A stretch of DNA of 64,000 bases from Escherichia phage vB_EcoM_005. The notes below the pieces were generated by a model. It was not told the origin of the DNA. It made no database searches and saw only the letters and a program-made list of their open reading frames with translations. Location of the stretch: sequence record MK295203; one strand, given 5' to 3'. A program made the translations under genes and the position numbers. Of the stretch, positions 1,850 to 57,343 are shown piece after piece; positions within the stretch are counted from its first letter, which is position 1, and each line of letters starts with the position of its first letter.

Positions 1850-1879
1850 GTTTACATCCAAGGATGGATGGAGTATAAT
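1850..1879 (+). promoter_or_regulatory. T4-type early promoter (GTTTAC -35, 18-nt spacer, TATAAT -10)
   Basis: GTTTAC at 1850-1855, TATAAT at 1874-1879, followed by leader and GAGGAG RBS before ATG 1908. Confidence 0.5.
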
Positions 1880-1907
1880 CCTTTTATCAACTACTGAGGA
1901 GAATATC

Positions 1908-2819
1908 ATGACTCGTACTGAATACATCAATGCCTTTACTACGTATATCACTGCTGCCACCCCTCCATTAACCCCATACGAGGTAATAGTTTCTAATATC
2001 AATAAATGGGTAGACCAAATTGATGAAGCACTATCTGGTTGTTTCAAAGATGAAATCGAAAAGATTGCGAGTCGTTTGTTTATTTCTGATATCACGGAAA
2101 CTTTTAAAGGTTCTCGTTTGCTTTCACGCCTGGTCAATAAGGACATCCTTTCAGAGTTTGGCAAAGAGAAACATCCAGGTTCCAGCCATGTTGTTAGCTA
2201 TCAATGGTTTGGTGACGTTTTAAAAAGCTATGTCAAAATTAAAGGTGCCGATCCTAGTGGCCTATTTCCACAACGTTGGGCTGGTGAATTTAAGGCTAAC
2301 TCCGCATTAATTCTAAAAGCAGCAACCAAAACCTTTGTAAAGGGTGATTGTCGTACTATCCACCCTATGGCTAATTGCATGATTAAAACAAACAGCTATA
2401 AAGGGAAGGTACTTATTTCTATTATTTGGTCGCCTAGTCGGAAACCTAAAGAAGTTGAAGTTTCGAAATACCACGATATTTCCTACAATACCCTGAATAT
2501 GGTAGAACAGGCTTTAGCTTTGATGGATACAGTAGAGAAATATGAGATTCAAGAAATCAAACACCACTTAGGCTGGAAAGGATATGAAGTTTTAGTAACA
2601 GTTCGCGAAATCAAATGCCCTGTTCCAAAAACCGACGCTGAAATTTATCAAGAAAAATGTGAGGAAATTGTGAACACTGATAAAGAGCCTGCAACCTTAG
2701 AAGACCTGATTGATGAGCTGAATAGCCCGAGGCTATTGGCCTGTGCACAAATTACTAAATCCAAGTTACCAGAAGTCGTTGCGGACCGTCTTGAACAGGC
2801 TCTGGAGCTGCTGAAATGA
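1908..2819 (+). CDS. hypothetical protein
   Basis: 303 aa; start set at ATG preceded by GAGGAG RBS and early promoter. Confidence 0.5.
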   Translation: MTRTEYINAFTTYITAATPPLTPYEVIVSNINKWVDQIDEALSGCFKDEIEKIASRLFISDITETFKGSRLLSRLVNKDILSEFGKEKHPGSSHVVSYQWFGDVLKSYVKIKGADPSGLFPQRWAGEFKANSALILKAATKTFVKGDCRTIHPMANCMIKTNSYKGKVLISIIWSPSRKPKEVEVSKYHDISYNTLNMVEQALALMDTVEKYEIQEIKHHLGWKGYEVLVTVREIKCPVPKTDAEIYQEKCEEIVNTDKEPATLEDLIDELNSPRLLACAQITKSKLPEVVADRLEQALELLK

Positions 2820-5984: not shown

Positions 5985-6013
5985 GTTTACTTCCTCTCCT
6001 CACGTGTTATAGT
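5985..6013 (+). promoter_or_regulatory. T4-type early promoter
   Basis: GTTTAC 5985-5990, 17-nt spacer, TATAGT 6008-6013, then CCTATCAAC leader and GAGGAG RBS. Confidence 0.5.
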
Positions 6014-6042
6014 CTATCCTATCAACACATGAGGAGAACATT

Positions 6043-6219
6043 ATGACTATCCAAGATAAAGAAATTAAAGTCAACCAGTATTATTCAATCAACGGCAAAG
6101 CTGTTCTAGTAACTGAAATATCTAGCCTGGATGTGTGGTATACCATAATTGACCTTAATATTAAAATGATTTGTGACCGTGGTGTATTTTGTTCGATAGC
6201 TAAGGAAATCAAATTATGA
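6043..6219 (+). CDS. hypothetical protein
   Basis: 58-aa ORF directly downstream of early promoter and RBS. Confidence 0.35.
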   Translation: MTIQDKEIKVNQYYSINGKAVLVTEISSLDVWYTIIDLNIKMICDRGVFCSIAKEIKL

Positions 6220-6472: not shown

Positions 6473-6766
6473 ATGGGTAAAACTATTCGTCGTAAAGAAT
6501 TGTCTGTAAAAGATTTTTATTATTCTGGACGCCGTAAAGCACCGGACGGCGTAAGTCAGGATTTGGTTGAAGAAAATATCTTCCGTTCTGACAAGTGGAA
6601 ACGTATGAGAGGCGTTGATTCCGAAGTTAAGAATGAAATGAACCGCCAACTTCGTAAAGAAGTGAGAAAGCTGAAAAAAGATGTTTACAACGACGATGAA
6701 CCTGATTACAATACTTCTCATCGAGTTGCAAAACGTAAATCAAACGAGTGTTATCGTTACAGCTGA
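6473..6766 (+). CDS. hypothetical basic protein
   Basis: 97 aa, Lys/Arg-rich. Confidence 0.45.
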   Translation: MGKTIRRKELSVKDFYYSGRRKAPDGVSQDLVEENIFRSDKWKRMRGVDSEVKNEMNRQLRKEVRKLKKDVYNDDEPDYNTSHRVAKRKSNECYRYS

Positions 6767-6905: not shown

Positions 6906-7106
6906 ATGAATCCTGAATCTAAATTATCACAGCGAATTGCTGAAGCTCGTCGTCAGTTCTTTGAAAATATGATGGCTCAAGGTATTGATGACGAAGTTTT
7001 TCTGAACTGGTTTTGGAATCACAAATATTCAGCTTGTTCAGGCGCTTTGTTAATTTCCGCAGCAATGATGTATGAAGGCTGGAAAGGTGCTAAAGCACAA
7101 AAATAG
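6906..7106 (+). CDS. hypothetical protein
   Basis: 66-aa ORF. Confidence 0.4.
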   Translation: MNPESKLSQRIAEARRQFFENMMAQGIDDEVFLNWFWNHKYSACSGALLISAAMMYEGWKGAKAQK

Positions 7107-7135
7107 TTTACAAACTCTTGGGACCAGAGTATAAT
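7106..7135 (+). promoter_or_regulatory. T4-type early promoter
   Basis: GTTTAC 7106-7111, TATAAT 7130-7135. Confidence 0.5.
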
Positions 7136-7174
7136 GGTCCTACGGATTATAACTTTAAAACTGAGGAAATTATT

Positions 7175-7504
7175 ATGTCACAAGCTATTAAAAACGTACT
7201 GAACTCTTTCGCTTTCGATAAAGTAAACGAACTGATGAAAACTGGTTTTGTAACTCCTCAGGTTCTTGACCAATGGGTTGCTGAACTGTTACCAATCATG
7301 CACTCTAAAGACCAGAAAATTGGTAAGAATGGTATTCGTGAAATCCTGGTTCAATATATCCTTGATGAATTCGATGTCGCAGCCTTTGGTGTCGAATCTA
7401 AAGCTTGGGCCCCTGGTGAAATCTCTGATAAAACTATCCGTCGTATGAAGAACCAGCGTAAGAAAAAATTCGTTGACCTTAAAATTGTTAAGGCGGCGAA
7501 ATGA
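7175..7504 (+). CDS. hypothetical protein
   Basis: 109 aa; start at ATG after GAGGAA RBS. Confidence 0.5.
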   Translation: MSQAIKNVLNSFAFDKVNELMKTGFVTPQVLDQWVAELLPIMHSKDQKIGKNGIREILVQYILDEFDVAAFGVESKAWAPGEISDKTIRRMKNQRKKKFVDLKIVKAAK

Positions 7505-19713: not shown

Positions 19714-19743
19714 GTTTACATACCACATGGAACGTGGTAGTAT
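19714..19743 (+). promoter_or_regulatory. T4-type early promoter
   Basis: GTTTAC 19714-19719, TAGTAT 19738-19743, CCTATCAAC leader. Confidence 0.5.
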
Positions 19744-19774
19744 CCTTCCTATCAACTACTTAGAGGAAATTACA

Positions 19775-20011
19775 ATGGAAGCTTTAATCGTTAGTGCTGG
19801 TGTTTTAGGATTCGGTTCTCTGGCTATTATGTTCATTGGTTACTTTTTACCATGGATTTTAGCTCTTCTGCGAGGCACTCGTAGTAATGTAGGAATTTTC
19901 TTCCTTAATCTCCTGTTAGGTTGGACGATGATTGGTTGGGTAGTGGCTTTAATCTGGGCTATCGCTGCTGAACGTAAATCAAATGCACAAATCATTATTG
20001 TTAAACAGTAA
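19775..20011 (+). CDS. small two-TM membrane protein at the T4 imm position (Imm-like by synteny)
   Basis: 78 aa, two hydrophobic helices, directly downstream of gene 43. Confidence 0.5.
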   Translation: MEALIVSAGVLGFGSLAIMFIGYFLPWILALLRGTRSNVGIFFLNLLLGWTMIGWVVALIWAIAAERKSNAQIIIVKQ

Positions 20012-26032: not shown

Positions 26033-26354
26033 TTTATCTGATTTAGATAATTTCGTTAAAGATACCGAAGAGGGTCCTAGTGACCCTCGGTATTATGAGA
26101 AATCATTAGATATAATCCGTAAGTCAATGGGTTCTGTTAAGCAGGAAATTATGCTTACTTTACCCGATGGCACTGCTCACATCGTTTATGTGATGAATAT
26201 TGTTATTGAGAAAGATGGAAAAGTGTCGGTTGATTTCGGAACACCTTCCGAAGACCGAAAAGAAGAGCTAGCGCTTCATGTAGAAAAATGTGTTACAATG
26301 CAAATACAAGAAGAACTGGATAAAATTAAATCTAAGAGGTGGTGGAAATGGTAG
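26025..26354 (+). CDS. hypothetical protein at the T4 gene 40 position
   Basis: 109-aa ORF between uvsX and 41; synteny only. Confidence 0.4.
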   Translation: MTDLSDLDNFVKDTEEGPSDPRYYEKSLDIIRKSMGSVKQEIMLTLPDGTAHIVYVMNIVIEKDGKVSVDFGTPSEDRKEELALHVEKCVTMQIQEELDKIKSKRWWKW

Positions 26355-27780
26355 AAACTATTTTGGCTCAACTGCTAGGCAATAGTGATTATTTCACTAA
26401 GGTCTGGCCTTATATGAATGATTCTTATTTTGACCAGGGTCCTGCAAAGACCCTTTTCAAAGAAATTAAAAAACACGTCAATGAATATAATGCAGTGCCT
26501 TCTAAGAACGCATTGAGCATTGCATTAGATAACAGTACGCTTTCAGAAGTTGAACATCAGGGCGCTAAAGAGCTTTTAAGTTCACTGAATGCCGGACCTG
26601 AAGACCAAGAATGGTTGGTTAAAGAGACGGAGAAATACGTTCAGAAAGCAGCGATGTATAATGCAACTTCAAAAATCATTGAAATCCAAACTAATGCCGA
26701 CCTTCCGGTTGAGCAACAAAATAGAAAACTTCCAGGTATTGGTGCTATTCCTGGATATCATGCGTGATGCATTATCGATTTGTTTCGATTCTGAATTAGG
26801 TCATGACTGGATGGATGACTATGAAGAACGATTCAAAAGTTATTCCGATAAAGCACGTAAGGTTCCGTTCCGTCTTAATATTCTGAATAAGATTACCAAG
26901 GGTGGTGCCGAGTTTGGTTACTGAAAACGTATTGTTGGCAGGAACAAACGTAGGTAAGTCTCTTGGCCTGTGTTCATTGGCTGCTGATTACCTTCAATCA
27001 GGTTACGATGTTCTTTATATCTCCATGGAGATGGCAGAGGAAGTATGTGCTAAGCGTATAGATGCCAACCTTCTGGATGTATCGCTGGATGATATCGATG
27101 ATGGTCATGTCTCTTGGCCTGAATATAAAGCTAAGATGGATAAATGGCGTTCAACTGCTACCTTAGGTCGTTTAAAGATTAAACAGTATCCTACTGGTGG
27201 TGCTAATGCCGATACCTTCCGTGCATTATTAAACGAATACAAGCTCAAACAAAACTTTGTGCCGCAGGTCGTTATCGTCGACTACTTGGCCATTTGTGCA
27301 TCGTCTCGTACTAAAGTTTTCTCTGAAAACAGTTACGGATTGATTAAGATGGTAGCCGAAGAACTACGTGGACTGGCAGTAGAGAAGAAATTATTGTTGT
27401 GGACAGCAGCCCAGACTACTCGTGGTGCGAACGTTGCGGCCGAAATCGATATGGCTGATATTGCTGAATCATTTGGTATTGCACATACTGCAGACTTCAT
27501 GTTAGGTGTGGTCGAGACAGAAGAGTTTGCTCAGATGGGTATGCAAATGGTTAAGCAGCTTAAATCTCGTTACGGCGATAAGAGCTACTACAACAAATTT
27601 AAGATTGGCGTTAAGAAAGGAAACCAACGTTGGTATGAAGTTGAAGACGATTCCAACCCAGGCCCGGTGAACACTGTTCGTGAGGCTACAGGTGAGATGA
27701 ATCGTCAAGCCGAGGTCAATCGTCAGACGCGTGTTAATAGAAGTGATTTAGACGATTTAGCAGCATCTATCAAATTTTAA
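26348..27780 (+). CDS. 41: replicative DNA helicase gp41 (DnaB-like), interrupted by two apparent +1 indels
   Basis: three consecutive ORFs in three frames (to 26767, 26589-26924, 26902-27780) together colinear with my recollection of T4 gp41; Walker A GTNVGKS; frame changes near 26754 and 26918. Confidence 0.85.
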
Positions 27781-27800
27781 GGAGCTTCGGCTCCTTTTTT
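27781..27800 (+). terminator. rho-independent terminator
   Basis: GGAGC-TTCG-GCTCC hairpin followed by TTTTTT. Confidence 0.6.
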
Positions 27801-27809
27801 GTTTTAAGG

Positions 27810-27838
27810 GTTTACATCTCCTATAGGCATGATACTAT
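27810..27838 (+). promoter_or_regulatory. T4-type early promoter
   Basis: GTTTAC 27810-27815, 17-nt spacer, TACTAT 27833-27838, AGACCTATCAAC leader. Confidence 0.55.
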
Positions 27839-27862
27839 AGACCTATCAACTTGGAGAACAAA

Positions 27863-28180
27863 ATGAAAACCATCGATTGCAAAGCAGAACATAAAGTGTA
27901 TTACCATGGAAGTTGTAGTGTTGCTAATATCGGTAATATGCTTTGTCCTCCTGAGGAAACAGGAGTTCTGTCTGAAACCGGTCGTAAGAAAAACCTAAAT
28001 CGTGTGTTCTTTACTGAAGATATCGGTTTGGCTAAGATTTATGCAGGACGCGCAGCTCGTTCAGTGGGAGGAGAACCTCGTCTTTATCGTGTAATTGCTC
28101 CGGTAGATGTGGTTTGTTTAAATGATACTAAAGGCGCCACAGTTTATCATGCTGAATGGGCCTTCTGTGAGGAAATCTAA
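27863..28180 (+). CDS. hypothetical protein
   Basis: 105-aa ORF downstream of early promoter. Confidence 0.45.
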   Translation: MKTIDCKAEHKVYYHGSCSVANIGNMLCPPEETGVLSETGRKKNLNRVFFTEDIGLAKIYAGRAARSVGGEPRLYRVIAPVDVVCLNDTKGATVYHAEWAFCEEI

Positions 28181-28757: not shown

Positions 28758-28787
28758 GTTTACAACGGTCTATGGTAGTGATACTAT
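28758..28787 (+). promoter_or_regulatory. T4-type early promoter
   Basis: GTTTAC 28758-28763, TACTAT 28782-28787, AGACCTATCAAC leader, GAGGAG RBS. Confidence 0.55.
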
Positions 28788-28815
28788 AGACCTATCAACT
28801 AACGAGGAGTTAAAA

Positions 28816-29109
28816 ATGAAAAAGTTATTAATCGCAGCAATCCTTACAGTAGCATCATGTGGCACGGCTCCAGTAACTGCCGGATTGGATAAAGACCTTT
28901 GTGAATGGTCTATGACTGCAGACCAAGAATCGGTTGAACATCAGATTTATGCCGATATCATGAACATCACTAAACGCGACCGCCCTGATATGGCTAAAGA
29001 AGTGTCAGACCAATTAGCTTCAGGTGGTGTTATGCAATATAACTATGTTTTGTATTGCGATGCCAATTTCGATAACAAAAATATCGTTAAAGAGGTGACA
29101 GATGAATAA
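28816..29109 (+). CDS. predicted lipoprotein
   Basis: signal peptide with lipobox VASC; 97 aa. Confidence 0.5.
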   Translation: MKKLLIAAILTVASCGTAPVTAGLDKDLCEWSMTADQESVEHQIYADIMNITKRDRPDMAKEVSDQLASGGVMQYNYVLYCDANFDNKNIVKEVTDE

Positions 29110-34595: not shown

Positions 34596-34618
34596 GGAAC
34601 CTTCGGGTTCCTTTTTTT
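34596..34618 (+). terminator. rho-independent terminator
   Basis: GGAACC-TTCG-GGTTCC hairpin followed by TTTTTTT. Confidence 0.6.
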
Positions 34619-34628
34619 GGTTTTAAGG

Positions 34629-34660
34629 GTTTACTTTTTAGGAAGGTTGTGTTAAGATGG
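34629..34660 (+). promoter_or_regulatory. possible early promoter
   Basis: GTTTAC 34629-34634 with a weak -10 candidate downstream. Confidence 0.35.
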
Positions 34661-34684
34661 TATTATCTTATAGAGGAGAACACT

Positions 34685-34894
34685 ATGTTAAATCGTTGGA
34701 TTAAACCAAATAAAACTTTGGATGAAATTATCGCTAATCATGTATTGAAAAAGTACTTTTATACTCCTTGGTATACCGAAGTTATTGTCCATTCATTTAT
34801 GATGCATGAAGACGGTTCTATCGAATTTAATGCCGAAATCCGTCACGAGACTGATGATATTGATAAGGTTGAATTTAAACGAGGTTTCTTATGA
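34685..34894 (+). CDS. hypothetical protein
   Basis: 69 aa; ATG after AGAGGAG RBS. Confidence 0.4.
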   Translation: MLNRWIKPNKTLDEIIANHVLKKYFYTPWYTEVIVHSFMMHEDGSIEFNAEIRHETDDIDKVEFKRGFL

Positions 34895-36152: not shown

Positions 36153-36182
36153 GTTTTACACCTCCTCCCTTCATGTTATAAT
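36153..36182 (+). promoter_or_regulatory. early promoter (GTTTTAC variant)
   Basis: GTTTTAC 36153-36159, TATAAT 36177-36182. Confidence 0.45.
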
Positions 36183-36206
36183 GACCTCTAAATCACTGGA
36201 GGTCAT

Positions 36207-36776
36207 ATGAACATCGAACAAAAATGTCTTTATCAAGACCGAATCAATTCCAAATTCTCAAAACACGAACAGAATCTTTTAGAAAAATGTCTGGATGCTA
36301 AAAAGGACCCTAACTTCCATTACGACCTTGATAAGCTAGTTCGTAAGCATGTTACTTCAGCGGTTCCGGTAGAGCTTTATCGTGGGATTACCCCTATGGA
36401 ACTTGAGCAACTTGAAGTTCTTTCTGTTGGGTGTCAGTGGTCTCCTGGCCGGGTTACTTCTTTTAGTACACAATACTCTCAGGCTCGTCAGTTCGCAGGG
36501 GCATGGGAATATGGAACCAGAACCATTTTAAGTCTCAGGAATGCTCCATTCATTTTTGACTACTATAACCATGCTATCGACCTTGTTCTTGCAGGGAATG
36601 TGGATGAGCTTGAAATAGATGAAACCCGTATCGACCTCTACGATATGGTAGAAACTGAATGTGAGTTCATGGTCTCTAGCCTATCACGATTTGAGATTGT
36701 TGAAATCGAAACCATCAAAAGAGACCCGTACGAAATCGAGTACAAAACAATTCATTTAAAAATGTTGAATTTTTAG
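36207..36776 (+). CDS. ADP-ribosyltransferase (ModA/ModB family), paralogue 1
   Basis: R-S-ExE pattern: LYRGI, SFSTQYSQA, ETECEF; 189 aa; sits at the T4 modB/modA position. Confidence 0.5.
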   Translation: MNIEQKCLYQDRINSKFSKHEQNLLEKCLDAKKDPNFHYDLDKLVRKHVTSAVPVELYRGITPMELEQLEVLSVGCQWSPGRVTSFSTQYSQARQFAGAWEYGTRTILSLRNAPFIFDYYNHAIDLVLAGNVDELEIDETRIDLYDMVETECEFMVSSLSRFEIVEIETIKRDPYEIEYKTIHLKMLNF

Positions 36777-36805
36777 TTTACAGGCAAGGAAGCTTGTGGT
36801 ACTAT
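36776..36805 (+). promoter_or_regulatory. T4-type early promoter
   Basis: GTTTAC 36776-36781, TACTAT 36800-36805, CTATCAAC leader, GAGGAG RBS. Confidence 0.5.
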
Positions 36806-36830
36806 CTTTCTATCAACTGAGGAGAATAAT

Positions 36831-37445
36831 ATGTTATATCCAAGCCATAAATTAGCAGAATTTATCAACAACGCCAAATGCGACGATTTCCGTGAGAATA
36901 CTCAGATAGAAATTGATGAGGTGTATTCTGATTTAGAACAGAGCACTCTCTGGCAGTGTATGGAAAATAAACCGGATACTATCCAGGAAACTCTGAACAA
37001 AATTATTCGTAAGAACCTGACTTCTGTAGTGCCCGACAAATTGTACCGTGGGATTTCTAAGAAGACTATGGCATATCTTGAATCTACGATGTGCGTAGGC
37101 GCCGTAATTGAATTCGACCGAGTAATGAGCTTCTCAAAAGATTTCAATGTGGCTCGTAACTTCGCATCTTATAACTTCTACGGCACATTTAATATCTTTT
37201 GTATTAATGATGCACCGTTTGTGTACAATTATCAGGAAGAAATCTTTAAAATGTTATGTGCCGCGCCCCCTGAAGAGTTCCCGGGAGCATTTCCTGAATC
37301 TACCCGTGTAGCAAACTTACAATTAATAAATGATGAAGATGAGATGATGTTCCCTGCGGGAACTACGCTGCGCGTAGACTCTATTGAGAGAAATCCTAAA
37401 TGGAATAATTACACCATTTGGAATCTTTCCGTTCTTTCTTACTGA
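36831..37445 (+). CDS. ADP-ribosyltransferase (ModA/ModB family), paralogue 2
   Basis: LYRGIS, SFSKDFNVA, DEDEMMF; 204 aa. Confidence 0.5.
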   Translation: MLYPSHKLAEFINNAKCDDFRENTQIEIDEVYSDLEQSTLWQCMENKPDTIQETLNKIIRKNLTSVVPDKLYRGISKKTMAYLESTMCVGAVIEFDRVMSFSKDFNVARNFASYNFYGTFNIFCINDAPFVYNYQEEIFKMLCAAPPEEFPGAFPESTRVANLQLINDEDEMMFPAGTTLRVDSIERNPKWNNYTIWNLSVLSY

Positions 37446-37514: not shown

Positions 37515-37543
37515 GTTTACTTTATCAAGCAACGTGATACTAT
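37515..37543 (+). promoter_or_regulatory. T4-type early promoter
   Basis: GTTTAC 37515-37520, TACTAT 37538-37543, AGACCTATCAAC leader. Confidence 0.55.
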
Positions 37544-37582
37544 AGACCTATCAACTAATCGTCCGTAAGATGAGAAAAAATT

Positions 37583-38317
37583 ATGACTACTGAATTTGAT
37601 TTAAAAGTTTACAAACGTCGCGAACATACTAAAGCCTCTGCCAAGAAACGCGGTAAGGACTTTAACCTATCTAGCAAGTACATTCGTAGACTTCTTGAAC
37701 AAAAAGTGTGTGCATATTCAGGCGAGCGCTTTGATGAGAATTCGGATAGTGATAAGATTTCGTTTGAACGCTTTAACAACGATATAGGTTATATCGAAGG
37801 TAATGTAATCCCAGTTAAAGTTAAGTACAACTGGTTGCGCGCTGATTTGTCTTTAGATGAATTGAAACGTGCACAGACTCGTTTAGCGTCCCGTATTTCA
37901 GGTAGTTCTAAAATGCCTAATAGTTTTAAAGTTACCCCCGATAATTATTATAAAATTCGTAAAATCGTTAAAAATATTAAAGATACCCAAAGAGGCCTTA
38001 AAAAGCGTGAAAAACGTCTTAAGGACCTTATTAAATCAGGAGCCACTGATAATACCCCTTCTGTCATCGCGGTTAAGGCTCGTATCCATGGTTCTAACGC
38101 TTCAATCGGTACTATGGAAAAAGGCCTTAAATCTTTAATTGGTGGACCTGATTGGCGTGTCAAGTTTAAATTGTCTGAAGCAGAAACGCGTTACGATATG
38201 TATGATAAAATTATTCAAGGTCTGGAGCGTTTAGAACACCTTTCTTTTATTGACAAAATGAAGTTGAAAAAAGGTCTTCCGCTGAATGCTTCAATTTTTT
38301 CACTGATTAGAGGTTAA
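37583..38317 (+). CDS. hypothetical basic protein at the T4 srd position
   Basis: 244-aa ORF between the ADP-ribosyltransferases and dda; synteny only. Confidence 0.35.
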   Translation: MTTEFDLKVYKRREHTKASAKKRGKDFNLSSKYIRRLLEQKVCAYSGERFDENSDSDKISFERFNNDIGYIEGNVIPVKVKYNWLRADLSLDELKRAQTRLASRISGSSKMPNSFKVTPDNYYKIRKIVKNIKDTQRGLKKREKRLKDLIKSGATDNTPSVIAVKARIHGSNASIGTMEKGLKSLIGGPDWRVKFKLSEAETRYDMYDKIIQGLERLEHLSFIDKMKLKKGLPLNASIFSLIRG

Positions 38318-40486: not shown

Positions 40487-40515
40487 GTTTACTTCTCCTC
40501 ATGACATGATATTAT
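40487..40515 (+). promoter_or_regulatory. T4-type early promoter
   Basis: GTTTAC 40487-40492, 17-nt spacer, TATTAT 40510-40515, CCTATCAAC leader, GAGGAG RBS. Confidence 0.55.
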
Positions 40516-40542
40516 CTACCCTATCAACATGAGGAGAACAAA

Positions 40543-41052
40543 ATGAAAATTTATCGAGTGGAGTCATCGTTCAGTATCTTAGATAACAGCGATGTTATAG
40601 CAATCACTCACCAACAGTGCCGCCAATTAACACCGTATAGAGGCTCGTTTGATGAATGGAGCGAAGGTTGGTTATTAGAAGTAGGTTTCGACAAACCTAA
40701 TTTTAGACACCACCATACCAATAATAAAAATATTCCGCTACCAGGTCAAGACAAGTTGTTGGTGGAAAATTCTAATAAAACCATTCGAACTAAGTGGAAC
40801 CAGCCTGATTATGAAGGCTGTGATGATTATATTCCAGGTTGGTTTGTTAATCTCTACCATTTTGCTTTTGCCAGTGAGTATGATATGATGCGCTGGTTCA
40901 CTCGTGAAGAGCGTGAAGAATTATCTTCTAAAGGATTCTATCTTGCTGTTTACGAAATACCTGAAGATGAGGTTGTCATTGGTGGCCGTCAAGTAATGTT
41001 CCGCAAATCCTATGCCGAACTCGTAGATTTTATTGAAATGAGAAAATTATGA
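40543..41052 (+). CDS. hypothetical protein
   Basis: 169-aa ORF. Confidence 0.45.
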   Translation: MKIYRVESSFSILDNSDVIAITHQQCRQLTPYRGSFDEWSEGWLLEVGFDKPNFRHHHTNNKNIPLPGQDKLLVENSNKTIRTKWNQPDYEGCDDYIPGWFVNLYHFAFASEYDMMRWFTREEREELSSKGFYLAVYEIPEDEVVIGGRQVMFRKSYAELVDFIEMRKL

Positions 41053-41596: not shown

Positions 41597-41625
41597 GTTT
41601 ACTTTATCGAGAGCCATGTTATAAT
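41597..41625 (+). promoter_or_regulatory. T4-type early promoter
   Basis: GTTTAC 41597-41602, 17-nt spacer, TATAAT 41620-41625. Confidence 0.55.
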
Positions 41626-41666
41626 GGCTCTCATGGAGAATAAACCTTTAACCAAGAGAGAAAATT

Positions 41667-42233
41667 ATGATTACTATTTCCGATATCGGCGGTATTGTTC
41701 GTGTATCCAAAAAGTCTCGTTCAAAAGCCGCGGGCTGTTTAGTTGAAGTTGTTAGCATCCAACTTAAAGAAGGTGTCAGTGAAGAAAATTCTGAAGTAAA
41801 AGTGCGTATCATTCCTAAAAATGGCCAGACTGAAACTCAATTCGCTTATGTGCGTGCTAAATTCTTGGAATCGACTGAATTTACCGGATACATCGCTCCT
41901 GTTGTTGAAGAAGTTGAATCTCACGATGGGTATGTATGTGAAAGCAATGATATCCGTGGCGTAGTAGCTCAAGACGTTGAAACTATTGACCAATCTCATG
42001 TGGGTGTAGATTTCAAATGGAAATTAGGCTCGGGTGTCTTTTTCGTTTCTCCTAAGCCGTTTAAATATTATGACGAACCTTTCGGTACTTACGAAACTAC
42101 TAGCATGTCCGGTTATATCACAGACCAATGGGTTGAAGAAGGTGTTAAACTCTATAACATCGTATTCCTTGGAACCTTTAAGGTTGTCCCTGAAAGCTTT
42201 ATTGTTGAATATGCCAATATTCATCGTGCATAA
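41667..42233 (+). CDS. hypothetical protein (paralogue of 41049-41594)
   Basis: C-terminal GYITDQWVEEGVKLYNIVFLGTFKVVP. Confidence 0.45.
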   Translation: MITISDIGGIVRVSKKSRSKAAGCLVEVVSIQLKEGVSEENSEVKVRIIPKNGQTETQFAYVRAKFLESTEFTGYIAPVVEEVESHDGYVCESNDIRGVVAQDVETIDQSHVGVDFKWKLGSGVFFVSPKPFKYYDEPFGTYETTSMSGYITDQWVEEGVKLYNIVFLGTFKVVPESFIVEYANIHRA

Positions 42234-42309
42234 AGTTTTAAAAAAACAGTATACAATATGGTAGGGTAGTGATAAGATTACCCTATCAACAAATGAGAGG
42301 AAAATAAAA

Positions 42310-42429
42310 TGGCTAAAGCTACTGTGAACTCGACTCGTGAAGAATTTGAAGATGTTCTGTTCAACCCTGATTTAATTGAAATCACTGCTGAAGGCACCGA
42401 CTTCTGGAAGGAAACTTATAATGTCTAAT
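42310..42429 (+). CDS. hypothetical small protein
   Basis: 39-aa ORF with RBS. Confidence 0.25.
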
Positions 42430-44989: not shown

Positions 44990-45074
44990 CTATTACAGTC
45001 GAAACATGGGACGGCGAAGTTTACCAAACCCGCGGACAAGTCTATAAGGTCGATTCAAGTAACTAAACTAATAA

Positions 45075-45092
45075 GGGCCTTCGGGCCCTTTT
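45075..45092 (+). terminator. rho-independent terminator
   Basis: GGGCC-TTCG-GGCCC hairpin followed by TTTT. Confidence 0.5.
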
Positions 45093-45096
45093 CGGG

Positions 45097-45126
45097 GTTT
45101 ACAAAGACCTGTGGTTATGATAGGAT
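45097..45126 (+). promoter_or_regulatory. possible early promoter
   Basis: GTTTAC 45097-45102 with TATGAT/TAGGAT -10 candidates. Confidence 0.35.
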
Positions 45127-45143
45127 TATCTAGAGGTGAGAAT

Positions 45144-45467
45144 ATGATTATGCAAGATAACAGTATAGTAAACACGGACAACCTGGCTTTATCCTTTATG
45201 GAAACTGCCATACGAAATTGTAAGGATGAAGGAATAGTGACTACAAGCGGTAAGGGACTTGAATACCTTAAGGCTGTAAAATCTATTGCCTTAAAGATTA
45301 AAGATAACCAGGCGCTCTCTCCTGTGGTCCAGGAAAAGGTTTTAGAGATAATGTATCGCCATCGGGAGCACAAGAGTACAATGGGTGCTATGAGAAGAAT
45401 TCTGGCTGAACTGGGTTCTACCAGAGAATATGTTCAACATGAGATAGTTAAAAATGACAAACTTTAA
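45144..45467 (+). CDS. hypothetical protein
   Basis: 107 aa; ATG after AGAGGTGAG RBS. Confidence 0.4.
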   Translation: MIMQDNSIVNTDNLALSFMETAIRNCKDEGIVTTSGKGLEYLKAVKSIALKIKDNQALSPVVQEKVLEIMYRHREHKSTMGAMRRILAELGSTREYVQHEIVKNDKL

Positions 45468-49699: not shown

Positions 49700-49729
49700 G
49701 TTTACATACGCCATGGATGGTGTTACTAT
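49700..49729 (+). promoter_or_regulatory. T4-type early promoter
   Basis: GTTTAC 49700-49705, TACTAT 49724-49729, CCTATCAAC leader. Confidence 0.55.
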
Positions 49730-49757
49730 CTTCCTATCAACTAATGAGGAAAACAAA

Positions 49758-50024
49758 ATGGATATCAAATTATATTACGCTAAACACAAAGTTACAGGTA
49801 TGGTTGTTGCCGCTATGTATGACGCGTCAGGTGAAGGTGATGATGTTACTACAGAGTTATCTCTTTCTGAATGTAAATTTCTCCGTCCCTTAATCGCATC
49901 AAAGGAAGATTTACAAAAACTTATCGACGGTAAACTAGATAATGTTGACGGCATAGATATTCTTTATGACCTCCGCACTGCATTGTACAGGGGATTGATT
50001 GAGATAAAAGAGGTGGTGTTTTGA
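49758..50024 (+). CDS. hypothetical protein
   Basis: 88-aa ORF. Confidence 0.45.
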   Translation: MDIKLYYAKHKVTGMVVAAMYDASGEGDDVTTELSLSECKFLRPLIASKEDLQKLIDGKLDNVDGIDILYDLRTALYRGLIEIKEVVF

Positions 50025-50114: not shown

Positions 50115-50143
50115 GTGTACATCTCCATTAATCATGATACTAT
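50115..50143 (+). promoter_or_regulatory. early promoter (GTGTAC -35 variant)
   Basis: GTGTAC 50115-50120, 17-nt spacer, TACTAT 50138-50143, AGACCTATCAAC leader. Confidence 0.45.
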
Positions 50144-50169
50144 AGACCTATCAACTAATGGAGATGATT

Positions 50170-50280
50170 ATGAAAAACTTACTTAAAGCAATTTGGAACA
50201 TGTTTGTGTTGTTAATGGTATTGAGCATTTTCCCAATCGTTTTTATGATTGACCATGTACGTGTATTCTTTAACTTCTGA
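50170..50280 (+). CDS. small membrane peptide
   Basis: 36-aa hydrophobic ORF after the promoter. Confidence 0.3.
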   Translation: MKNLLKAIWNMFVLLMVLSIFPIVFMIDHVRVFFNF

Positions 50281-50513: not shown

Positions 50514-50858
50514 ATGTCTAAAATCTTTTTTGGTAATGCTAAGGTAATGTTCTTTAAACAACTCAGCCTTCAGGATGCATCGCTGGCATTCAATCAAAGT
50601 ATGATTCCTGGTGTAGATTCAAAAATTATGATGGGCGCCGATTTCGTTTTCGTTCAAGACCCGGAAACAGGCTTTTATCGGTTCATTAAATTTCGTATGA
50701 GTATGGACCCGTATTATCATAGCGGCTATTATGTAAGCTATGAAAATGTTATCAAAGAACTACGTGATACTTATGGACAGGCTTTGAATCCACTGAACAA
50801 GGTTTATAATGCTACCTTTTATACGAGCGGATTTATTTTAGAACAGCTACAAAAATAG
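50514..50858 (+). CDS. hypothetical protein
   Basis: 114-aa ORF with RBS. Confidence 0.4.
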   Translation: MSKIFFGNAKVMFFKQLSLQDASLAFNQSMIPGVDSKIMMGADFVFVQDPETGFYRFIKFRMSMDPYYHSGYYVSYENVIKELRDTYGQALNPLNKVYNATFYTSGFILEQLQK

Positions 50859-50886
50859 TTTACAACCTCGAGAATCATGTTATAAT
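50858..50886 (+). promoter_or_regulatory. T4-type early promoter
   Basis: GTTTAC 50858-50863, 17-nt spacer, TATAAT 50881-50886. Confidence 0.55.
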
Positions 50887-50935
50887 GGTTCTCGTTGACT
50901 GGATAACAAAACATTAATCTACTGAGGAAATTGAT

Positions 50936-51385
50936 ATGAATACTTATATGACTCGCCGTAACGTTCTGTCTGCTGGTGCTACTACTGTTGCTTATGTTAA
51001 GAACGGTGAATACCAAAATGGTAAACCTTCTAAAGAAATCTCTGCTCAGCCAGGCTTCTACTTCTTTGTTAAAGGTGGAGCTGATTCTCGTGTCGTAGCG
51101 GCTCGTTTTTATGTCGGTAATCAACGTTCTGCTCAAGGCCTCGATGGTATCGTGGCTAACATTCGTAAGAAACGTTCTCAATCAGCTCGCACTATGGCAG
51201 TGAACGGTGTGGTGTATGAAGTTCTTTATGTACCGGCTTCTAAAATGAAACCTCTGACTACCGGTTTTGGTAAGGGTCAAATTGCAATGGCTTTCACTCG
51301 CAATCATAGTTCCGATCTCCAGACACTGGAAGAAATGAACCGTATGTTGGCTGATAACTTTAAATTCATTCTGCAGGCGTACTAA
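50936..51385 (+). CDS. hypothetical protein (T4 ndd region)
   Basis: 149-aa ORF between rIIB and 52; synteny only. Confidence 0.35.
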
Positions 51386-53001: not shown

Positions 53002-53024
53002 GGAACCTTCGGGTTCCTTTTTTT
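53002..53024 (+). terminator. rho-independent terminator
   Basis: GGAACC-TTCG-GGTTCC hairpin followed by TTTTTTT. Confidence 0.6.
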
Positions 53025-53043
53025 GGGTTTAGTGCAAAAAAGT

Positions 53044-53072
53044 GTTTACATCTGCTTTAAACATGATACTAT
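53044..53072 (+). promoter_or_regulatory. T4-type early promoter
   Basis: GTTTAC 53044-53049, 17-nt spacer, TACTAT 53067-53072, AGACCTATCAA leader. Confidence 0.55.
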
Positions 53073-53110
53073 AGACCTATCAAATAAATGAACTGAAACG
53101 GAGATACAAA

Positions 53111-53743
53111 ATGTCTAAAATTACTTATATCATCAAAGCTTCTGAAGACGTCCTGAATGAAAAAACTGCTTCGATCTTAGTACATATCATCAAGCATAAC
53201 TTCATCACTTCAGGCGAAGTCCGTGAAGCCCTGAGTGAGCAATTTAGTGCAGCAGTGGTTAACTCTAACATCGGTGTATTGATTAAGAAAGGATTCATCG
53301 AAAAATCTGGTGACGGTTTAGTGGCTACAGGTGAAGCAATGGACCTGGTTCAAAAAGCTGCTGACCTGTTCGCTTCTGAAAATGCTCCAGAGATGTTGGA
53401 AAAACGTAAAACGCGTAGTTCACGTGGTGTTACTCCTGAAATGGTAACACTGGCTGATGAAGTTAAAGCTTTATTAGAAGACCGTATCGAGATTCGTGAA
53501 ATTGCTGAAAACCGTAGCAACCTTGAAGTTCGATTCGCTAAACGTACCAATGGTATTCGTCAAATTGAAGTCCGTCGTGATGGCATGATGCGCATCTTCG
53601 GTTATAATATGACCGATAAAGAAAAACAAGTGTTTACTTCCTTGAATCTTGATGTTAAGATTAAGACCGGTGGTAAGAATACTTATATCGACTTCCAAAA
53701 CGTATCATCTGAAGTTATCAAAATCGTAACCAACGCAATTTAA
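53111..53743 (+). CDS. motA: middle-transcription activator MotA
   Basis: 210 aa; MSK.TYIIKAS.DVLNEKTA, VVNSNIGVLIKKG..EKSGDGL, KRTNGIR, MRIFGY match my recollection of T4 MotA. Confidence 0.9.
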   Translation: MSKITYIIKASEDVLNEKTASILVHIIKHNFITSGEVREALSEQFSAAVVNSNIGVLIKKGFIEKSGDGLVATGEAMDLVQKAADLFASENAPEMLEKRKTRSSRGVTPEMVTLADEVKALLEDRIEIREIAENRSNLEVRFAKRTNGIRQIEVRRDGMMRIFGYNMTDKEKQVFTSLNLDVKIKTGGKNTYIDFQNVSSEVIKIVTNAI

Positions 53744-55678: not shown

Positions 55679-55800
55679 GCACGACTCATAAGGACAAGAA
55701 GAAAAACTTTAAAGAGTCTAAACGTAAACAGAAACATAAGGGTAAAGGCTATGAGTCATAACTTAGAGAATACCGTAACAGGCATGCGTACACGGGACAT

Positions 55801-55829
55801 GTTTACAATCCCTAAGGATATGTTAGTAT
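55801..55829 (+). promoter_or_regulatory. T4-type early promoter (copy 1)
   Basis: GTTTAC 55801-55806, 17-nt spacer, TAGTAT 55824-55829. Confidence 0.5.
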
Positions 55830-55870
55830 AGCCCTATCAGATAATGACGTACTGAATTGAAGAGAATATT

Positions 55871-56005
55871 ATGACTAAAATTGAAATCGTTTCCGAAATT
55901 GCCACTATTGTTTCCATTTTGATTAAAACGGATTGTGAAGACATCATGCAACGTCGTGATGAGTTTATGAACATGTTTACAATCCCTAAGGATATGTTAG
56001 TATAG
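55871..56005 (+). pseudogene. asiA 5' duplicate, truncated at the repeat junction
   Basis: MTKIEIVSEIATIVSILIKTDCEDIMQRRDEF then reads into the repeated promoter sequence and stops. Confidence 0.5.
55975..56003 (+). promoter_or_regulatory. T4-type early promoter (copy 2)
   Basis: identical to the 55801-55829 promoter. Confidence 0.5.
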
Positions 56006-56044
56006 CCCTATCAGATAATGACGTACTGAATTGAAGAGAATATT

Positions 56045-56320
56045 ATGACTAAAATTGAAATTGTTTCCGAAATTGCTACTATTGTTTCCATTTTGATTAA
56101 AACGGATTGTGAAGACATCATGCAACGTCGTGATGAGTTTATTGCCTTTTTGAATGAGTTGGGTATTCGTAATGAACATGGAAAGGAACTTAATGGTTTG
56201 TCTTATAACAAATTATTTAAGTCTTTAACTGAAGATGAACGTGACACTCTTATTGAGCAATTTAATGAAGGATATGAAGATATACACCGTTATTTAATGA
56301 TGTATACCTCCAATTTCTAA
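56045..56320 (+). CDS. asiA: anti-sigma-70 factor AsiA
   Basis: 91 aa; TIVSILIK...FIAFLNE.G..HEG..LN..S..K....LTE...TLIEQFNEGYE..HRYL.MYT matches my recollection of T4 AsiA. Confidence 0.85.
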   Translation: MTKIEIVSEIATIVSILIKTDCEDIMQRRDEFIAFLNELGIRNEHGKELNGLSYNKLFKSLTEDERDTLIEQFNEGYEDIHRYLMMYTSNF

Positions 56321-57111: not shown

Positions 57112-57133
57112 GCACGAGGGTACTTGATTCAAA

Positions 57134-57339: not shown

Positions 57340-57343
57340 GCCA

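What the first reader, a model, noticed from the sequence alone, without database searches (positions are those of the whole stretch)
27810..27862. Family of at least 13 early promoters sharing a conserved initial transcribed sequence CCTATCAAC
Promoters at about 1850, 5985, 19714, 27810, 28758, 36776, 37515, 40487, 49700, 50115, 53044, 55801 and 55975 share GTTTAC, a 17-18 nt spacer and a TA(c/t)TAT -10 element, followed by (AGA)CCTATCAAC(TAA) and usually a GAGGAG ribosome-binding site. Conservation beyond the -10 element suggests a common 5' leader function, for example a processing or regulatory site; GGAG-containing ribosome-binding sites are the known targets of T4 RegB endoribonuclease.
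Basis: partly seen in the sequence, partly recalled or inferred. Interest (0 to 1): 0.4.

Follow-up and report, generated by a model that had tools for sequence, protein, structure and literature searches.

The report
T4-type early promoter start-site block
The repeated CCTATCAAC sits on the transcription start point of the well-known strong early promoters of T4-like phages; it is real and non-random, but T4 itself has it, so it is ordinary rather than new.

Summary
CCTATCAAC occurs 9 times, all on the + strand (0.37 expected). Every copy lies 3-4 nt after the -10 box of a GTTTAC-N17/18-TGnTAnnnT promoter in front of an ortholog of a T4 early gene.

The window comes from a Dhakavirus (a JS98/IME08-like T4-type phage). 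These are classical T4-type sigma-70 early promoters.

The block is not a free-standing leader element. CCT is the last 3 bp before the start (-3..-1), A is +1, and only ATCAAC is transcribed.

T4 carries the same block at about a third of its early promoters; its denV promoter matches the focal one at 40 of 42 nt. About a thousand T4-type phage records carry it. An Acinetobacter T4-like phage keeps the ATCAA start.

Mapped T4 middle promoters lack the block, so it is specific to the early class.

Best reading: a start-site module with a single purine in the RNA polymerase start window. It belongs to a paralogous family of promoter cassettes that are shuffled by recombination (PeSL-like) and often embedded in hairpins already annotated in T4 in 1986.

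RegB needs no sequence 5' of GGAG, so the processing-site idea is not supported.

Verdict: already known, low interest. The precise role of ATCAAC remains untested.

The parts
27779..27806 (+). Intrinsic terminator after gene 41 (AAGGAGC-TTCG-GCTCCTT, then a T run), directly upstream of the focal promoter
   Evidence: terminator scan; fold
27810..27865 (+). Focal early promoter cassette, driving the orf35 (RB69 orf040c-like) and dmd genes. -35 box GTTTAC 27810-15; 17-nt spacer with TGn 27830-32; -10 box TACTAT 27833-38; discriminator AGA; block CCTATCAAC 27842-50 with inferred +1 at A27845; GGAG 27853-56; ATG 27863-65
1850..1910 (+). Early promoter of nrdC.4. -10 box TATAAT; block variant TTTATCAAC 1883-1891; inferred +1 at 1886
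5985..6045 (+). Early promoter of a 55.6-like ORF. Exact block 6018-6026 in the 7-nt-discriminator register. The spacer is complementary to the SD region
19714..19777 (+). Early promoter of imm. Exact block 19748-19756 in the 7-nt-discriminator register
28758..28818 (+). Early promoter of sp (spackle). Exact block 28791-28799
36776..36833 (+). Early promoter of modA. Block variant TCTATCAAC 36809-36817
37515..37585 (+). Early promoter of srd. Exact block 37547-37555. The leader CGTCCGTAAGATG is shared with T4 srd, but the -10/block core differs
40487..40545 (+). Early promoter of motB.2. Exact block 40520-40528. Spacer TTCTCCTCAT pairs with ATGAGGAGAA, so in read-through RNA the -10 box and the block lie in the hairpin loop
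   Evidence: z = -3.55
42249..42311 (+). GTATAC / TAAGAT; exact block 42282-42290. Spacer TAGGGTA pairs with TACCCTA
49700..49760 (+). Early promoter of a hypothetical gene after denB. Exact block 49733-49741
50115..50172 (+). Early promoter (GTGTAC) of a small ORF upstream of ndd. Exact block 50147-50155. Spacer CATCTCCATTA pairs with TAATGGAGATG
53044..53113 (+). Early promoter of motA. Block variant CCTATCAAA 53076-53084
55801..55873 (+). asiA promoter copy 1. Block variant CCTATCAGA 55833-55841. Drives a truncated duplicate of the asiA 5' end and lies inside the scrambled stretch
55975..56047 (+). asiA promoter copy 2. Block variant 56007-56015. Drives full-length asiA
7106..7177 (+). Early-type promoter without the block (55.2-like gene). 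Its 35-nt core is identical to the T4 motB promoter. The arms GGGACC/GGTCC flank the -10 box
34629..34687 (+). Early-type promoter without the block (mrh.2)
36154..36209 (+). Early-type promoter without the block (modB; TTTTAC)
41597..41669 (+). Early-type promoter without the block (motB). The arms GAGAGCC/GGCTCTC flank the -10 box
45097..45146 (+). Early-type promoter without the block (rIIA.1-like), preceded by a terminator-like GGGCC-TTCG-GGCCC
50858..50938 (+). Early-type promoter without the block (ndd). The arms CGAGAATC/GGTTCTCG flank the -10 box

Best explanation
The element at 27810-27862 and its relatives are T4-type early promoters, read by unmodified host sigma-70 RNA polymerase in the first minutes of infection. 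Each has an A/T-rich upstream stretch, a GTTTAC -35 box, a 17-18 nt spacer ending in TGn, and a TAnnnT -10 box.

CCTATCAAC is the start-site module of this promoter class. CCT occupies -3..-1, A is +1, and TCAAC is +2..+6.

How it most likely works (inferred): the pyrimidine-A-pyrimidine layout leaves one purine in the polymerase's start window, 6-9 nt after the -10 box. Initiation is therefore fixed on that A, at the modal position 7 (position 8 in three promoters), giving a homogeneous pppA-U-C... 5' end.

Why the same nine letters recur, rather than just that composition (partly shown): T-even early promoters are a paralogous family of roughly 70-nt promoter-leader cassettes. These cassettes are duplicated, moved and homogenised by recombination between copies, as in PeSL-type shuffling.

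Many cassettes also carry an inverted repeat between the spacer and the sequence after the -10 box. In read-through RNA the -10 box, and often the block, then lie in or next to a hairpin.

Shown: the promoter anatomy, register, class specificity, distribution, cassette shuffling and hairpins. Inferred: the start-site and yield function of the block.
For: Statistics and strand bias.

Fixed register, 3-4 nt after the -10 box, with a TGn extended -10 at 17 of 19 promoters.

Gene context is T4 early-gene orthologs in a Dhakavirus.

Start register:
- The T4 record names 'early promoter Pe133295'. Coordinate 133295 is the 7th nt after the -10 box, an A in the same register as the block's A.
- The published E. 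coli RNA polymerase rule is start position 7>8>9>6>10 with a purine at the start (10.1101/239426).
- Block promoters have exactly one purine in positions 6-9.

Same block in T4: TACTAT AGACCTATCAAC at denV (40 of 42 nt identical to the focal promoter), ACAACTATCAAC at six or more promoters, TACCCTATCAAC at two to three. The pooled +1..+8 consensus is ATCAACTA.

Distribution:
- 70 IMG/VR loci, all in ~165-173 kb T4-like contigs or fragments of them.
- 983 phage records and 3378 places, mostly unannotated intergenic DNA.
- The Acinetobacter phage KARL-1 (Twarogvirinae) keeps AGTCAT|ATCAAC.

Class specificity: 25 mapped T4 middle promoters show no block.

Cassette mobility:
- The core of window promoter 7106 equals the T4 motB promoter at 35 of 35 nt, at a non-orthologous locus.
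- The srd leader is conserved, but the -10/block core is swapped.
- PeSL recombination crossovers were mapped between the -10 box and the SD/ATG (PMC2839356).

Hairpins:
- Each spacer pairs with its own downstream sequence better than with others': mean dG -9.6 against -7.1 kcal/mol in the window and -11.6 against -7.0 in T4, with 0 of 20000 permutations reaching the observed mean in either.
- The same inverted repeats are annotated in T4 record X04567.
Against: - No transcript 5' ends are available for this phage, so the start position is inferred.
- Six early-type promoters in the window and about two thirds of those in T4 work without the block. It is therefore not required for early promoter function.
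- T4 middle promoters start with the same polymerase and the same -10 box type without the block. A general RNA polymerase optimum therefore does not explain its restriction to the early class.
- Among six Dhakavirus genomes the block is not significantly less variable than the spacer or leader: 5 of 117 variable columns against 17 of 227 and 17 of 235. Purifying selection on the block itself is not demonstrated at that depth.
- Exact 20-25 nt identity among subfamily members (TGATACTATAGACCTATCAA) could be descent or gene conversion alone.
Confidence: 0.7

Rival explanations
1. The block has no function of its own. It is conserved only because early promoter cassettes are recent paralogs that are homogenised by recombination or gene conversion, so the block hitch-hikes next to the -10 box.
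For: - Subfamilies share long exact cores. TGATACTATAGACCTATCAA occurs at 27810, 28758, 37515, 50115 and 53044. T4 repeats GGTACTATACAACTATCAACTACTGATACGGATTTGGAGAATAAAATGA at several loci.
- Identical cassettes occur at non-orthologous loci in different genera.
- PeSL crossovers map between the -10 box and the SD.
- The within-genus test shows no extra constraint on the block.
Against: - The block is shared by subfamilies whose -6..-4 discriminators differ (AGA, ACA, TAC, CTT, CTA) and whose spacers and leaders are unrelated.
- It occurs in two registers relative to the -10 box.
- The ATCAA start persists in an Acinetobacter phage of another subfamily where -3..-1 differ.
- Conservation is concentrated on -3..+6 and is not spread evenly over the cassette.
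Confidence: 0.2
2. ATCAAC is a functional 5'-terminal RNA element of early mRNAs. It could be a determinant of stability, of 5'-end chemistry, of ribosome or S1 loading, or a processing signal.
For: - Leaders are very short (18-24 nt from +1 to ATG in most block promoters), so the 5' end lies close to the ribosome-binding site.
- Primary transcripts are predicted to be unstructured.
- The transcribed ATCAA part is the part kept in the distant phage KARL-1.
- The block matches the published NAD-capping anti-consensus GYYAWSS at -2, -1, +2 and +3. It would therefore bias 5' ends towards triphosphate.
Against: - The untranscribed CCT is at least as conserved as ATCAAC.
- RegB/S1 needs sequence 3' but not 5' of GGAG (PMC1702504; PMC3014915).
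- The block never occurs inside transcripts away from a promoter.
- There is no Rfam match.
- Early promoters lacking the block show no general G-poor or unstructured 5' rule.
Confidence: 0.1
3. The block is a DNA operator overlapping the start site for an early-class-specific regulator. One candidate is the still unidentified mechanism that shuts off T4 early promoters 2-5 min after infection.
For: - The block is specific to early promoters and absent from mapped middle promoters.
- It overlaps +1, a classical operator position.
- It is conserved across T4-like genera.
- Early promoter shut-off is described as 'not completely understood' (PMC3014915).
Against: - Only about a third of T4 early promoters and about two thirds of those in the window carry it, whereas shut-off is described for the whole class.
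- It has no dyad symmetry of its own.
- There is no candidate binding protein.
- Nothing in the sequence data requires a binding factor.
Confidence: 0.06
4. These are promoters for a phage single-subunit RNA polymerase, because TACTATAGA resembles the SP6/T7-type core ACTATAG.
For: Subfamily A contains ACTATAGA at -10..-4. The resemblance to the SP6 promoter core is recalled from memory.
Against: - The resemblance is limited to one subfamily.
- The conserved features are those of sigma-70 promoters: a -35 box, a 17-18 nt spacer, TGn and TAnnnT.
- The same promoters in T4 are host-polymerase early promoters (PMC2988021).
Confidence: 0.01

Closest known systems
Bacteriophage T4 early promoters (sigma-70 'uber' UP/-35/TGn/-10 promoters; Hinton 2010, PMC2988021; Nolan et al. 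2006, PMC1524935)
   Same: - -35 box GTTTAC, A-rich -40s, TGn extended -10 and TAnnnT -10 box.
- Location and orientation in front of early genes.
- C-rich -3..-1, as noted for RB69, RB49 and 44RR.
- The same CTATCAAC start block is present in T4 itself; the denV promoter is 40 of 42 nt identical to the focal one.
   Different: Only frequency differs. The block is at about two thirds of early promoters in this Dhakavirus window and at about one third in T4. There are 15-16 matches to the core per Dhakavirus genome against 1-4 in T4-type genomes.
PeSL, promoter-early stem-loop cassettes of RB49/phi1 (Arbiol et al. 2010, PMC2839356), and the 'PeSL-like' T-even elements of Repoila et al. 1994 as cited there
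   Same: - A repeated early promoter plus an overlapping or adjacent stem-loop.
- Cassettes at variable, non-orthologous positions next to small ORFs.
- Conserved -10-to-SD sequence where PeSL crossovers were mapped.
   Different: - Stems are AT-richer and lack the polyG/polyC arms.
- The -35 box is the T4 type (GTTTAC), not TTGACA.
- Mini-circles were not tested here.
- The PeSL authors themselves call the T-even elements analogs, not homologs.
Inverted repeats annotated around the T4 denV and regB (ORF 61.9) promoters in GenBank X04567 (58.3-65.5 kb early region)
   Same: The architecture is identical: the 5' arm lies in the -35/-10 spacer, the -10 box in the loop, and the 3' arm runs over the block and the ribosome-binding site. 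They are annotated as potential terminators of the upstream gene.
   Different: None in kind. The window has its own set of arms, and only a subset of them cover the SD.
RegB/S1 cleavage sites, GG*AGRAYARAA (Durand et al. 2006, PMC1702504)
   Same: Several leaders downstream of the block carry good matches. 27810 and 40487 match at 11 of 11 positions.
   Different: The site lies at and 3' of GGAG. No 5' context is required, so CCTATCAAC is not part of it.

Membership tests
T4-type early promoter | -35 hexamer GTTTAC (T4 variant of TTGACA) | tested here: met
   12 of the 13 listed sites are exact and 50115 has GTGTAC. The composite pattern gives 19 hits, all on the + strand, against 1.94 expected.
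T4-type early promoter | 17-18 nt spacer ending in an extended -10 TGn, then a TAnnnT -10 hexamer | tested here: met
   TG at -15/-14 in 17 of 19 promoters; T-12, A-11 and T-7 invariant.
T4-type early promoter | A/T-rich UP-like region around -40 to -46 | tested here: met
   A/T fraction is 0.7-1.0 in the 10 nt upstream of the -35 box for 17 of 20 promoters. The exceptions are 34629 (0.6), 45097 and 55801.
T4-type early promoter | Upstream of, and co-oriented with, early genes | tested here: met
   Orthologs of nrdC.4, imm, dmd region, sp, modB, modA, srd, motB.2, motB, cef, ndd, motA and asiA.
T4-type early promoter | Transcription by unmodified host RNA polymerase immediately after infection, with a mapped 5' end | not testable with these tools
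   Only indirect evidence: the register of T4 'Pe133295' and the published start-site rule.
PeSL cassette (RB49/phi1) | Strong early promoter plus an overlapping or adjacent stable stem-loop | tested here: met
   Complementarity between each spacer and its own downstream sequence beat 20000 of 20000 permutations. About 9 of 19 promoters in the window rank 1-2 for their own partner. Fold z = -3.55 at 40487.
PeSL cassette (RB49/phi1) | GGGG...CCCC-type stems and a sigma-70 consensus TTGACA -35 box | tested here: not met
   Arms are mixed or AT-rich (TTCTCCTCAT, CATCTCCATTA, TAGGGTA), and the -35 box is GTTTAC.
PeSL cassette (RB49/phi1) | Recombination between copies (mini-circles, ORF shuffling) | tested here: inconclusive
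   Indirect only: an identical core at non-orthologous loci in T4 and the window, and a swapped promoter core at srd. Mini-circles are not testable here.
PeSL cassette (RB49/phi1) | The stem-loop acts as a terminator or attenuator of upstream transcription | not testable with these tools
   Most promoter-embedded stems lack a following T run. Separate canonical terminators precede some promoters.
RegB/S1 target site | Single-stranded GGA(G) followed by the A-rich consensus RAYARAA | tested here: met
   This applies to the leaders, not to the block. Matches are 11 of 11 at 27810 and 40487, and 10 of 11 at 36776 (GGAG) and 42249, 49700 (GGA only).
RegB/S1 target site | The conserved block contributes to recognition | tested here: not met
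   From the literature: sequence 3' but not 5' of GGAG is required (PMC1702504, outline section 14; PMC3014915, section 8).
Known structured RNA family (Rfam) | Match at the gathering score | tested here: not met
   0 matches in the whole window.

The most novel reading that the evidence does not exclude
The start-site block, and especially the transcribed AUCAA that is kept even in an Acinetobacter T4-like phage, might be the cis-target of an early-class-specific factor conserved across Straboviridae. One possibility is the unidentified mechanism that abruptly shuts off early promoters. Another is a system that sets the 5'-end chemistry or fate of immediate-early mRNAs, since the block matches the NAD-capping anti-consensus.
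Probability: 0.07. Interest if true: 0.7.

Novelty: already known. Interest (0 to 1): 0.18.

Why it matters
As it stands, the finding mainly gives a clean annotation of about 20 early promoters with inferred start sites in a Dhakavirus genome. It also shows that the extended early promoter consensus of T-even phages includes a start-site module, (C)CT|ATCAAC, that is specific to the early class and widespread in T4-type phages.

Reviews note 'additional regions of consensus' in T4 early promoters whose role is unexplained, and say that early promoter shut-off is not completely understood. The block is therefore a cheap, well-defined target for mutagenesis. The sequence evidence here does not point beyond ordinary start-site definition in a recombining promoter family.

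Tried and rejected
1. **SP6/T7-like single-subunit polymerase promoter** (ACTATAGA). Rejected: the conserved features are those of sigma-70 promoters and the resemblance is confined to one subfamily.

2. **General G-poor, unstructured 5' leader rule.** Rejected: G depletion at +1..+10 comes from the block itself. Early promoters lacking the block have G = 0.18, like T4 middle promoters at 0.19.

3. **SD masking as the general purpose of the promoter-embedded hairpins.** Not supported as a family property.
   - SD accessibility in read-through RNA is no lower with the native spacer than with another promoter's upstream region or a shuffled spacer (0.42 against 0.43 and 0.42 in the window; 0.39 against 0.43 in T4).
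   - The drop relative to primary transcripts is therefore non-specific on average.
   - Masking holds only for a subset: 5985, 40487 and 50115 in the window, and T4 166807, 136336, 62797, 53943 and 8218.

4. **RNA-level versus DNA-level stems.** Sense-strand stems are more stable than antisense ones in T4 (p = 0.001). Part of this is base composition; against cross-pairs p = 0.038. In the window the trend is not significant. The result is suggestive only.

5. **Purifying selection on the block among six Dhakavirus genomes.** Underpowered and not significant.

6. **NAD-capping promoter.** The block matches the anti-consensus, not the consensus.

7. **Covariation between the -13 base and the block** (TGATA/TATCA pairing). 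None seen: T at -13 coexists with TATCA.

8. **Literature.**
   - Full-text search for CTATCAAC found no paper discussing it in T4 promoters. The only phage hit was an incidental sequence in the IME08 termini paper.
   - Miller et al. 2003, Zuber et al. 2007 (JS98) and Desplats et al. 2002 (RB49) are not held in the library. Liebig & Rüger 1989, which I also recall as relevant, was not looked up.
   - I therefore could not check whether those papers name the start-site block explicitly. From memory, their logos and consensus extend past +1.
Full report
**Observation.**
The sequence at 27810-27865 reads GTTTAC-ATCTCCTATAGGCATGA-TACTAT-AGA-CCTATCAAC-TT-GGAG-AACAAA-ATG.
- Exact CCTATCAAC occurs 9 times in the 64 kb window, always on the + strand, against 0.37 expected. 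None of 100 shuffles reached 9.
- With one mismatch there are 23 hits against 13 expected. The excess is accounted for by the nine exact copies plus 36809 and 53076; the remaining 12 hits equal chance.
- The composite pattern GTTTAC-N17/18-TAnnnT gives 19 hits, all on the + strand, against 1.94 expected.
Eight have the exact block, two have one mismatch and three have two.
- A 14th member was missed at 42249.
- 55801 and 55975 are two copies of one promoter.
- Six more promoters of the same type lack the block: 7106, 34629, 36154, 41597, 45097 and 50858.

**What the window is.**
- Megablast places the window in the genus Dhakavirus (JS98, IME08, AnYang, Bp7), at 92-96% identity.
- The T4 early and middle genes are on the + strand in T4 order: nrdC region, 55, 47/46, 45, 44/62, regA, 43, imm, uvsX, 40, 41, dmd, sp, 61, 56, soc, mrh, modB/A, srd, dda, dexA, motB, 39, rIIA/B, denB, ndd, 52, motA, asiA. 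After these come t and the tail-fibre genes on the - strand.
- Each promoter lies in front of an ortholog of a T4 early gene or of a small ORF of the hyperplastic regions.

**Anatomy and register.**
- Aligned on the -10 box (n = 19, with the duplicate removed), T-12, A-11 and T-7 are invariant.
- T-15/G-14, the extended -10, is present in 17 of 19.
- Outside the hexamers the best-conserved positions are C-3 (12), C-2 (15) and T-1 (14), followed by A T C A A C.
- So CCT is the 3' end of the discriminator and only ATCAAC is transcribed.
- In 5985, 19714 and 40487 the block sits one base further from the -10 box, giving a 7-nt discriminator.
- Three things support this register:
  - The T4 RefSeq record refers to 'early promoter Pe133295'. 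Coordinate 133295 is the seventh base after the -10 box of the cd.2 promoter, an A in the same register.
  - The 25 mapped T4 middle-promoter starts listed by Hinton (PMC2988021) fall 6-8 nt after their -10 boxes in my extraction.
  - The published rule for E. coli RNA polymerase is start position 7>8>9>6>10 after the -10 box, with a purine at the start (10.1101/239426).
- Block promoters contain exactly one purine in positions 6-9: the A.
- I therefore infer that the block pins initiation to one A. This step is inference; no 5' ends exist for this phage.

**The block is not specific to this genome.**
- I rebuilt T4 (NC_000866) from four fetched pieces and scanned it. 34 early-type promoters pass the same filter, all on the early strand.
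- They include:
  - TACTAT AGACCTATCAAC at denV, 40 of 42 nt identical to the focal promoter.
  - TACTAT ACAACTATCAAC at imm.1, nrdC.10, nrdC.8, e.8, motA and ndd.6.
  - TACTAT TACCCTATCAAC at ndd.4 and trna.4.
  - Weaker variants at frd.1, ipI, regB, mobD.2 and asiA.
- Pooled over both genomes, +1..+8 reads ATCAACTA.
- An exact scan of IMG/VR for GTTTAC-N17/18-TANNAT-NNN-CCTATCAAC found 70 loci. All are in contigs of about 165-173 kb or in fragments of such genomes. JS98-size contigs carry 7-9 copies and the others carry 1-3.
- A 35-nt consensus core finds 3378 places in 983 phage records. Nearly all are ~165-175 kb T4-type genomes of Escherichia, Klebsiella, Shigella, Acinetobacter, Enterobacter, Salmonella and others, mostly in unannotated intergenic DNA. 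Dhakavirus genomes have 15-16 places each.
- In Acinetobacter phage KARL-1, of a different subfamily (Twarogvirinae), early-type promoters read TACTAT AGTCAT|ATCAAC and TATAAT AGTCAT|ATCAAA.
- The block is specific to the early class. The mapped T4 middle promoters use the same polymerase and the same -10 box type and show nothing like it.

**Why the same letters recur.**
The promoters form a paralogous family of cassettes.
- Subfamilies share exact cores of 20-45 nt.
- The 35-nt core of window promoter 7106, in front of a 55.2-like gene, is identical to the T4 motB promoter. T4 has only a 13-nt gap at that position, and the window's own motB promoter (41597) is different.
- At srd, the leader CGTCCGTAAGATG.GAGAAAAA is conserved between T4 and the window, but the -10/block core has been exchanged.
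- This matches the PeSL model of Arbiol et al. (PMC2839356). There, repeated early promoter/stem-loop cassettes recombine, with crossovers mapped between the -10 box and the SD/ATG. PeSL-like elements are mentioned for JS98 and for the T-even IP loci.
- Descent and recombination therefore explain much of the identity.
- Some constraint beyond hitch-hiking is suggested by three facts. The block is shared by subfamilies with different discriminators and unrelated spacers and leaders. It occurs in two registers. The ATCAA start survives in KARL-1.
- I could not demonstrate that constraint within the genus. Among six Dhakavirus genomes the block has 5 of 117 variable columns, against 17 of 227 in spacers and 17 of 235 in leaders, which is not significant.

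**Hairpins around the promoters.**
- The -35/-10 spacer is complementary to sequence downstream of its own -10 box far more than to that of other promoters. Mean duplex energy is -9.6 against -7.1 kcal/mol in the window and -11.6 against -7.0 in T4. No permutation out of 20000 reached the observed mean in either genome.
- In one class the 3' arm starts right after the -10 box (7106, 41597, 42249, 50858). Those promoters mostly lack the block, because that position is taken by the arm.
- In the other class the 3' arm covers the SD (5985, 40487, 50115), and the block lies in the loop.
- Read-through RNA across 40487 folds with z = -3.55, whereas the primary transcript is unstructured.
- This is not new. 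GenBank X04567, the T4 58.3-65.5 kb early region, already annotates 'imp. inverted repeat C/C'' and 'D/D'' around the denV and regB -10 regions. The 3' arm overlaps the ribosome-binding site, and the structure is called a potential terminator. The C' arm includes CTATCAAC.
- My attempt to generalise SD masking failed its controls.
- The evidence that the stems act in RNA is only suggestive. The within-genus changes at 41597 are G·U-compatible.

- The leaders do carry RegB-type sites. GGAG is present in 8 of the 13 listed promoters, and 27810 and 40487 match GG*AGRAYARAA at 11 of 11 positions.
- RegB homologs occur in 1136 T4-type phage records. I did not confirm one in a Dhakavirus specifically.
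- However, the RegB/S1 site needs sequence 3' and not 5' of GGAG.
- The block never occurs away from a promoter, one third of it is not transcribed, and Rfam finds nothing.
- A leader processing site is therefore not supported.
- For 5'-end chemistry, the block (C-3 C-2 T-1 A T+2 C+3 A+4) matches the NAD-capping anti-consensus GYYAWSS at the two strongest positions (-1 and +2) and at -2 and +3. It would favour ordinary triphosphate ends.

**Comparison and novelty.**
- These are T4-type early promoters. Every sequence-level defining feature is met. The functional features cannot be tested here.
- Reviews state that T4 early promoters show 'additional regions of consensus' beyond UP/-35/TGn/-10 (PMC2988021). 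They also report that RB69, RB49 and 44RR prefer C at -3..-1 (PMC1524935).
- I could not open Miller et al. 2003, Zuber et al. 2007 or Desplats et al. 2002 to see whether ATCAAC is named, and I did not attempt Liebig & Rüger 1989. No paper in the searchable library discusses it.
- From memory, not checked: other strong phage promoters also start AUC after a C-rich -3..-1, such as T7 A1 ...AGCC|ATCGAG and lambda PL ...GCAC|ATCAGC. That fits a start-site optimum.
- The kind is already known, and the block is present in the best-studied member. What remains open is its exact contribution, and why it is confined to the early class.

**Caveats on the window itself.**
- The stretch 55797-57400 is a shingled mosaic of overlapping segments relative to AnYang and Bp7. 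It includes the duplicated asiA promoter.
- Gene 41 carries two single-base insertions relative to IME08 that break the frame.
- Both suggest errors in the source assembly. The count of independent block-bearing promoters is therefore 13, not 14.

Noticed in passing
window 5985-6045, 7106-7150, 40487-40545, 41597-41640, 42249-42290, 50115-50172, 50858-50900 (and many T4 early promoters): The -35/-10 spacer is specifically complementary to sequence downstream of its own -10 box (0 of 20000 permutations). Read-through RNA would therefore form a hairpin with the -10 box in the loop. In a subset the 3' arm covers the SD. The same inverted repeats are already annotated in the 1986 T4 record X04567 as potential terminators. 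SD masking is not a general property of the family.
   Followed up: yes
window 55797-57400: This stretch is a shingled mosaic of overlapping, repeated segments relative to AnYang and Bp7. Direct repeats: 172 nt x2, 113 nt x2, 117 nt x2 and 103 nt x2, plus a translocated 223-nt piece. It covers the asiA promoter, asiA and the holin gene t. It is probably an assembly artefact or a local rearrangement, and it creates the 55801/55975 'pair'.
   Followed up: partly
window 26752 and 26918 (gene 41, 26339-27780): Two single-base insertions relative to IME08 gene 41 split the essential helicase gene into three ORFs. This suggests indel errors in the source sequence.
   Followed up: partly
window 7106-7140 vs T4 7215-7181 (minus strand); window 37515-37585 vs T4 11851: The 35-nt promoter core GTTTACAAACTCTTGGGACCAGAGTATAATGGTCC is identical in the window (in front of a 55.2-like gene) and in T4 (in front of motB), at non-orthologous loci. 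At srd the leader is conserved, but the -10/start core is exchanged. This is evidence for shuffling of promoter cassettes.
   Followed up: yes
window 27779-27806; also 45072-45096 and about 34604-34628 and 53020-53043: Canonical GC-stem/T-run terminators, or T-rich tails, sit immediately upstream of several early promoters, giving terminator-promoter junctions between transcription units.
   Followed up: partly
window 27830-27848, 40507-40526, 50135-50153 (and the T4 denV promoter): TGATA (extended -10 plus the first two bases of the -10 box) is the reverse complement of TATCA inside the block. Predicted read-through folds use this 5-bp pairing on top of the outer stem. The -13 base shows no covariation, so its significance is unclear.
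   Followed up: partly
window 6683-6712 and 53632-53661: Two perfect GTTTAC-N18-TAnnnT matches lie inside coding sequence: a 55.5-like gene, conserved at the same place in T4 at 41261, and motA. They could be internal promoters or chance matches within a conserved coding sequence.
   Followed up: no
window 1874-1891 (nrdC.4 promoter): The IME08 counterpart of this promoter (...GGATGGATGGAG|TATAATCTTTCTATCAAC...) is listed among the high-frequency read starts that Jiang et al. 2011 interpreted as preferred terminase cuts at TTGGA|G-like sites. The cut falls just before the -10 box. This is probably coincidental.
   Followed up: no
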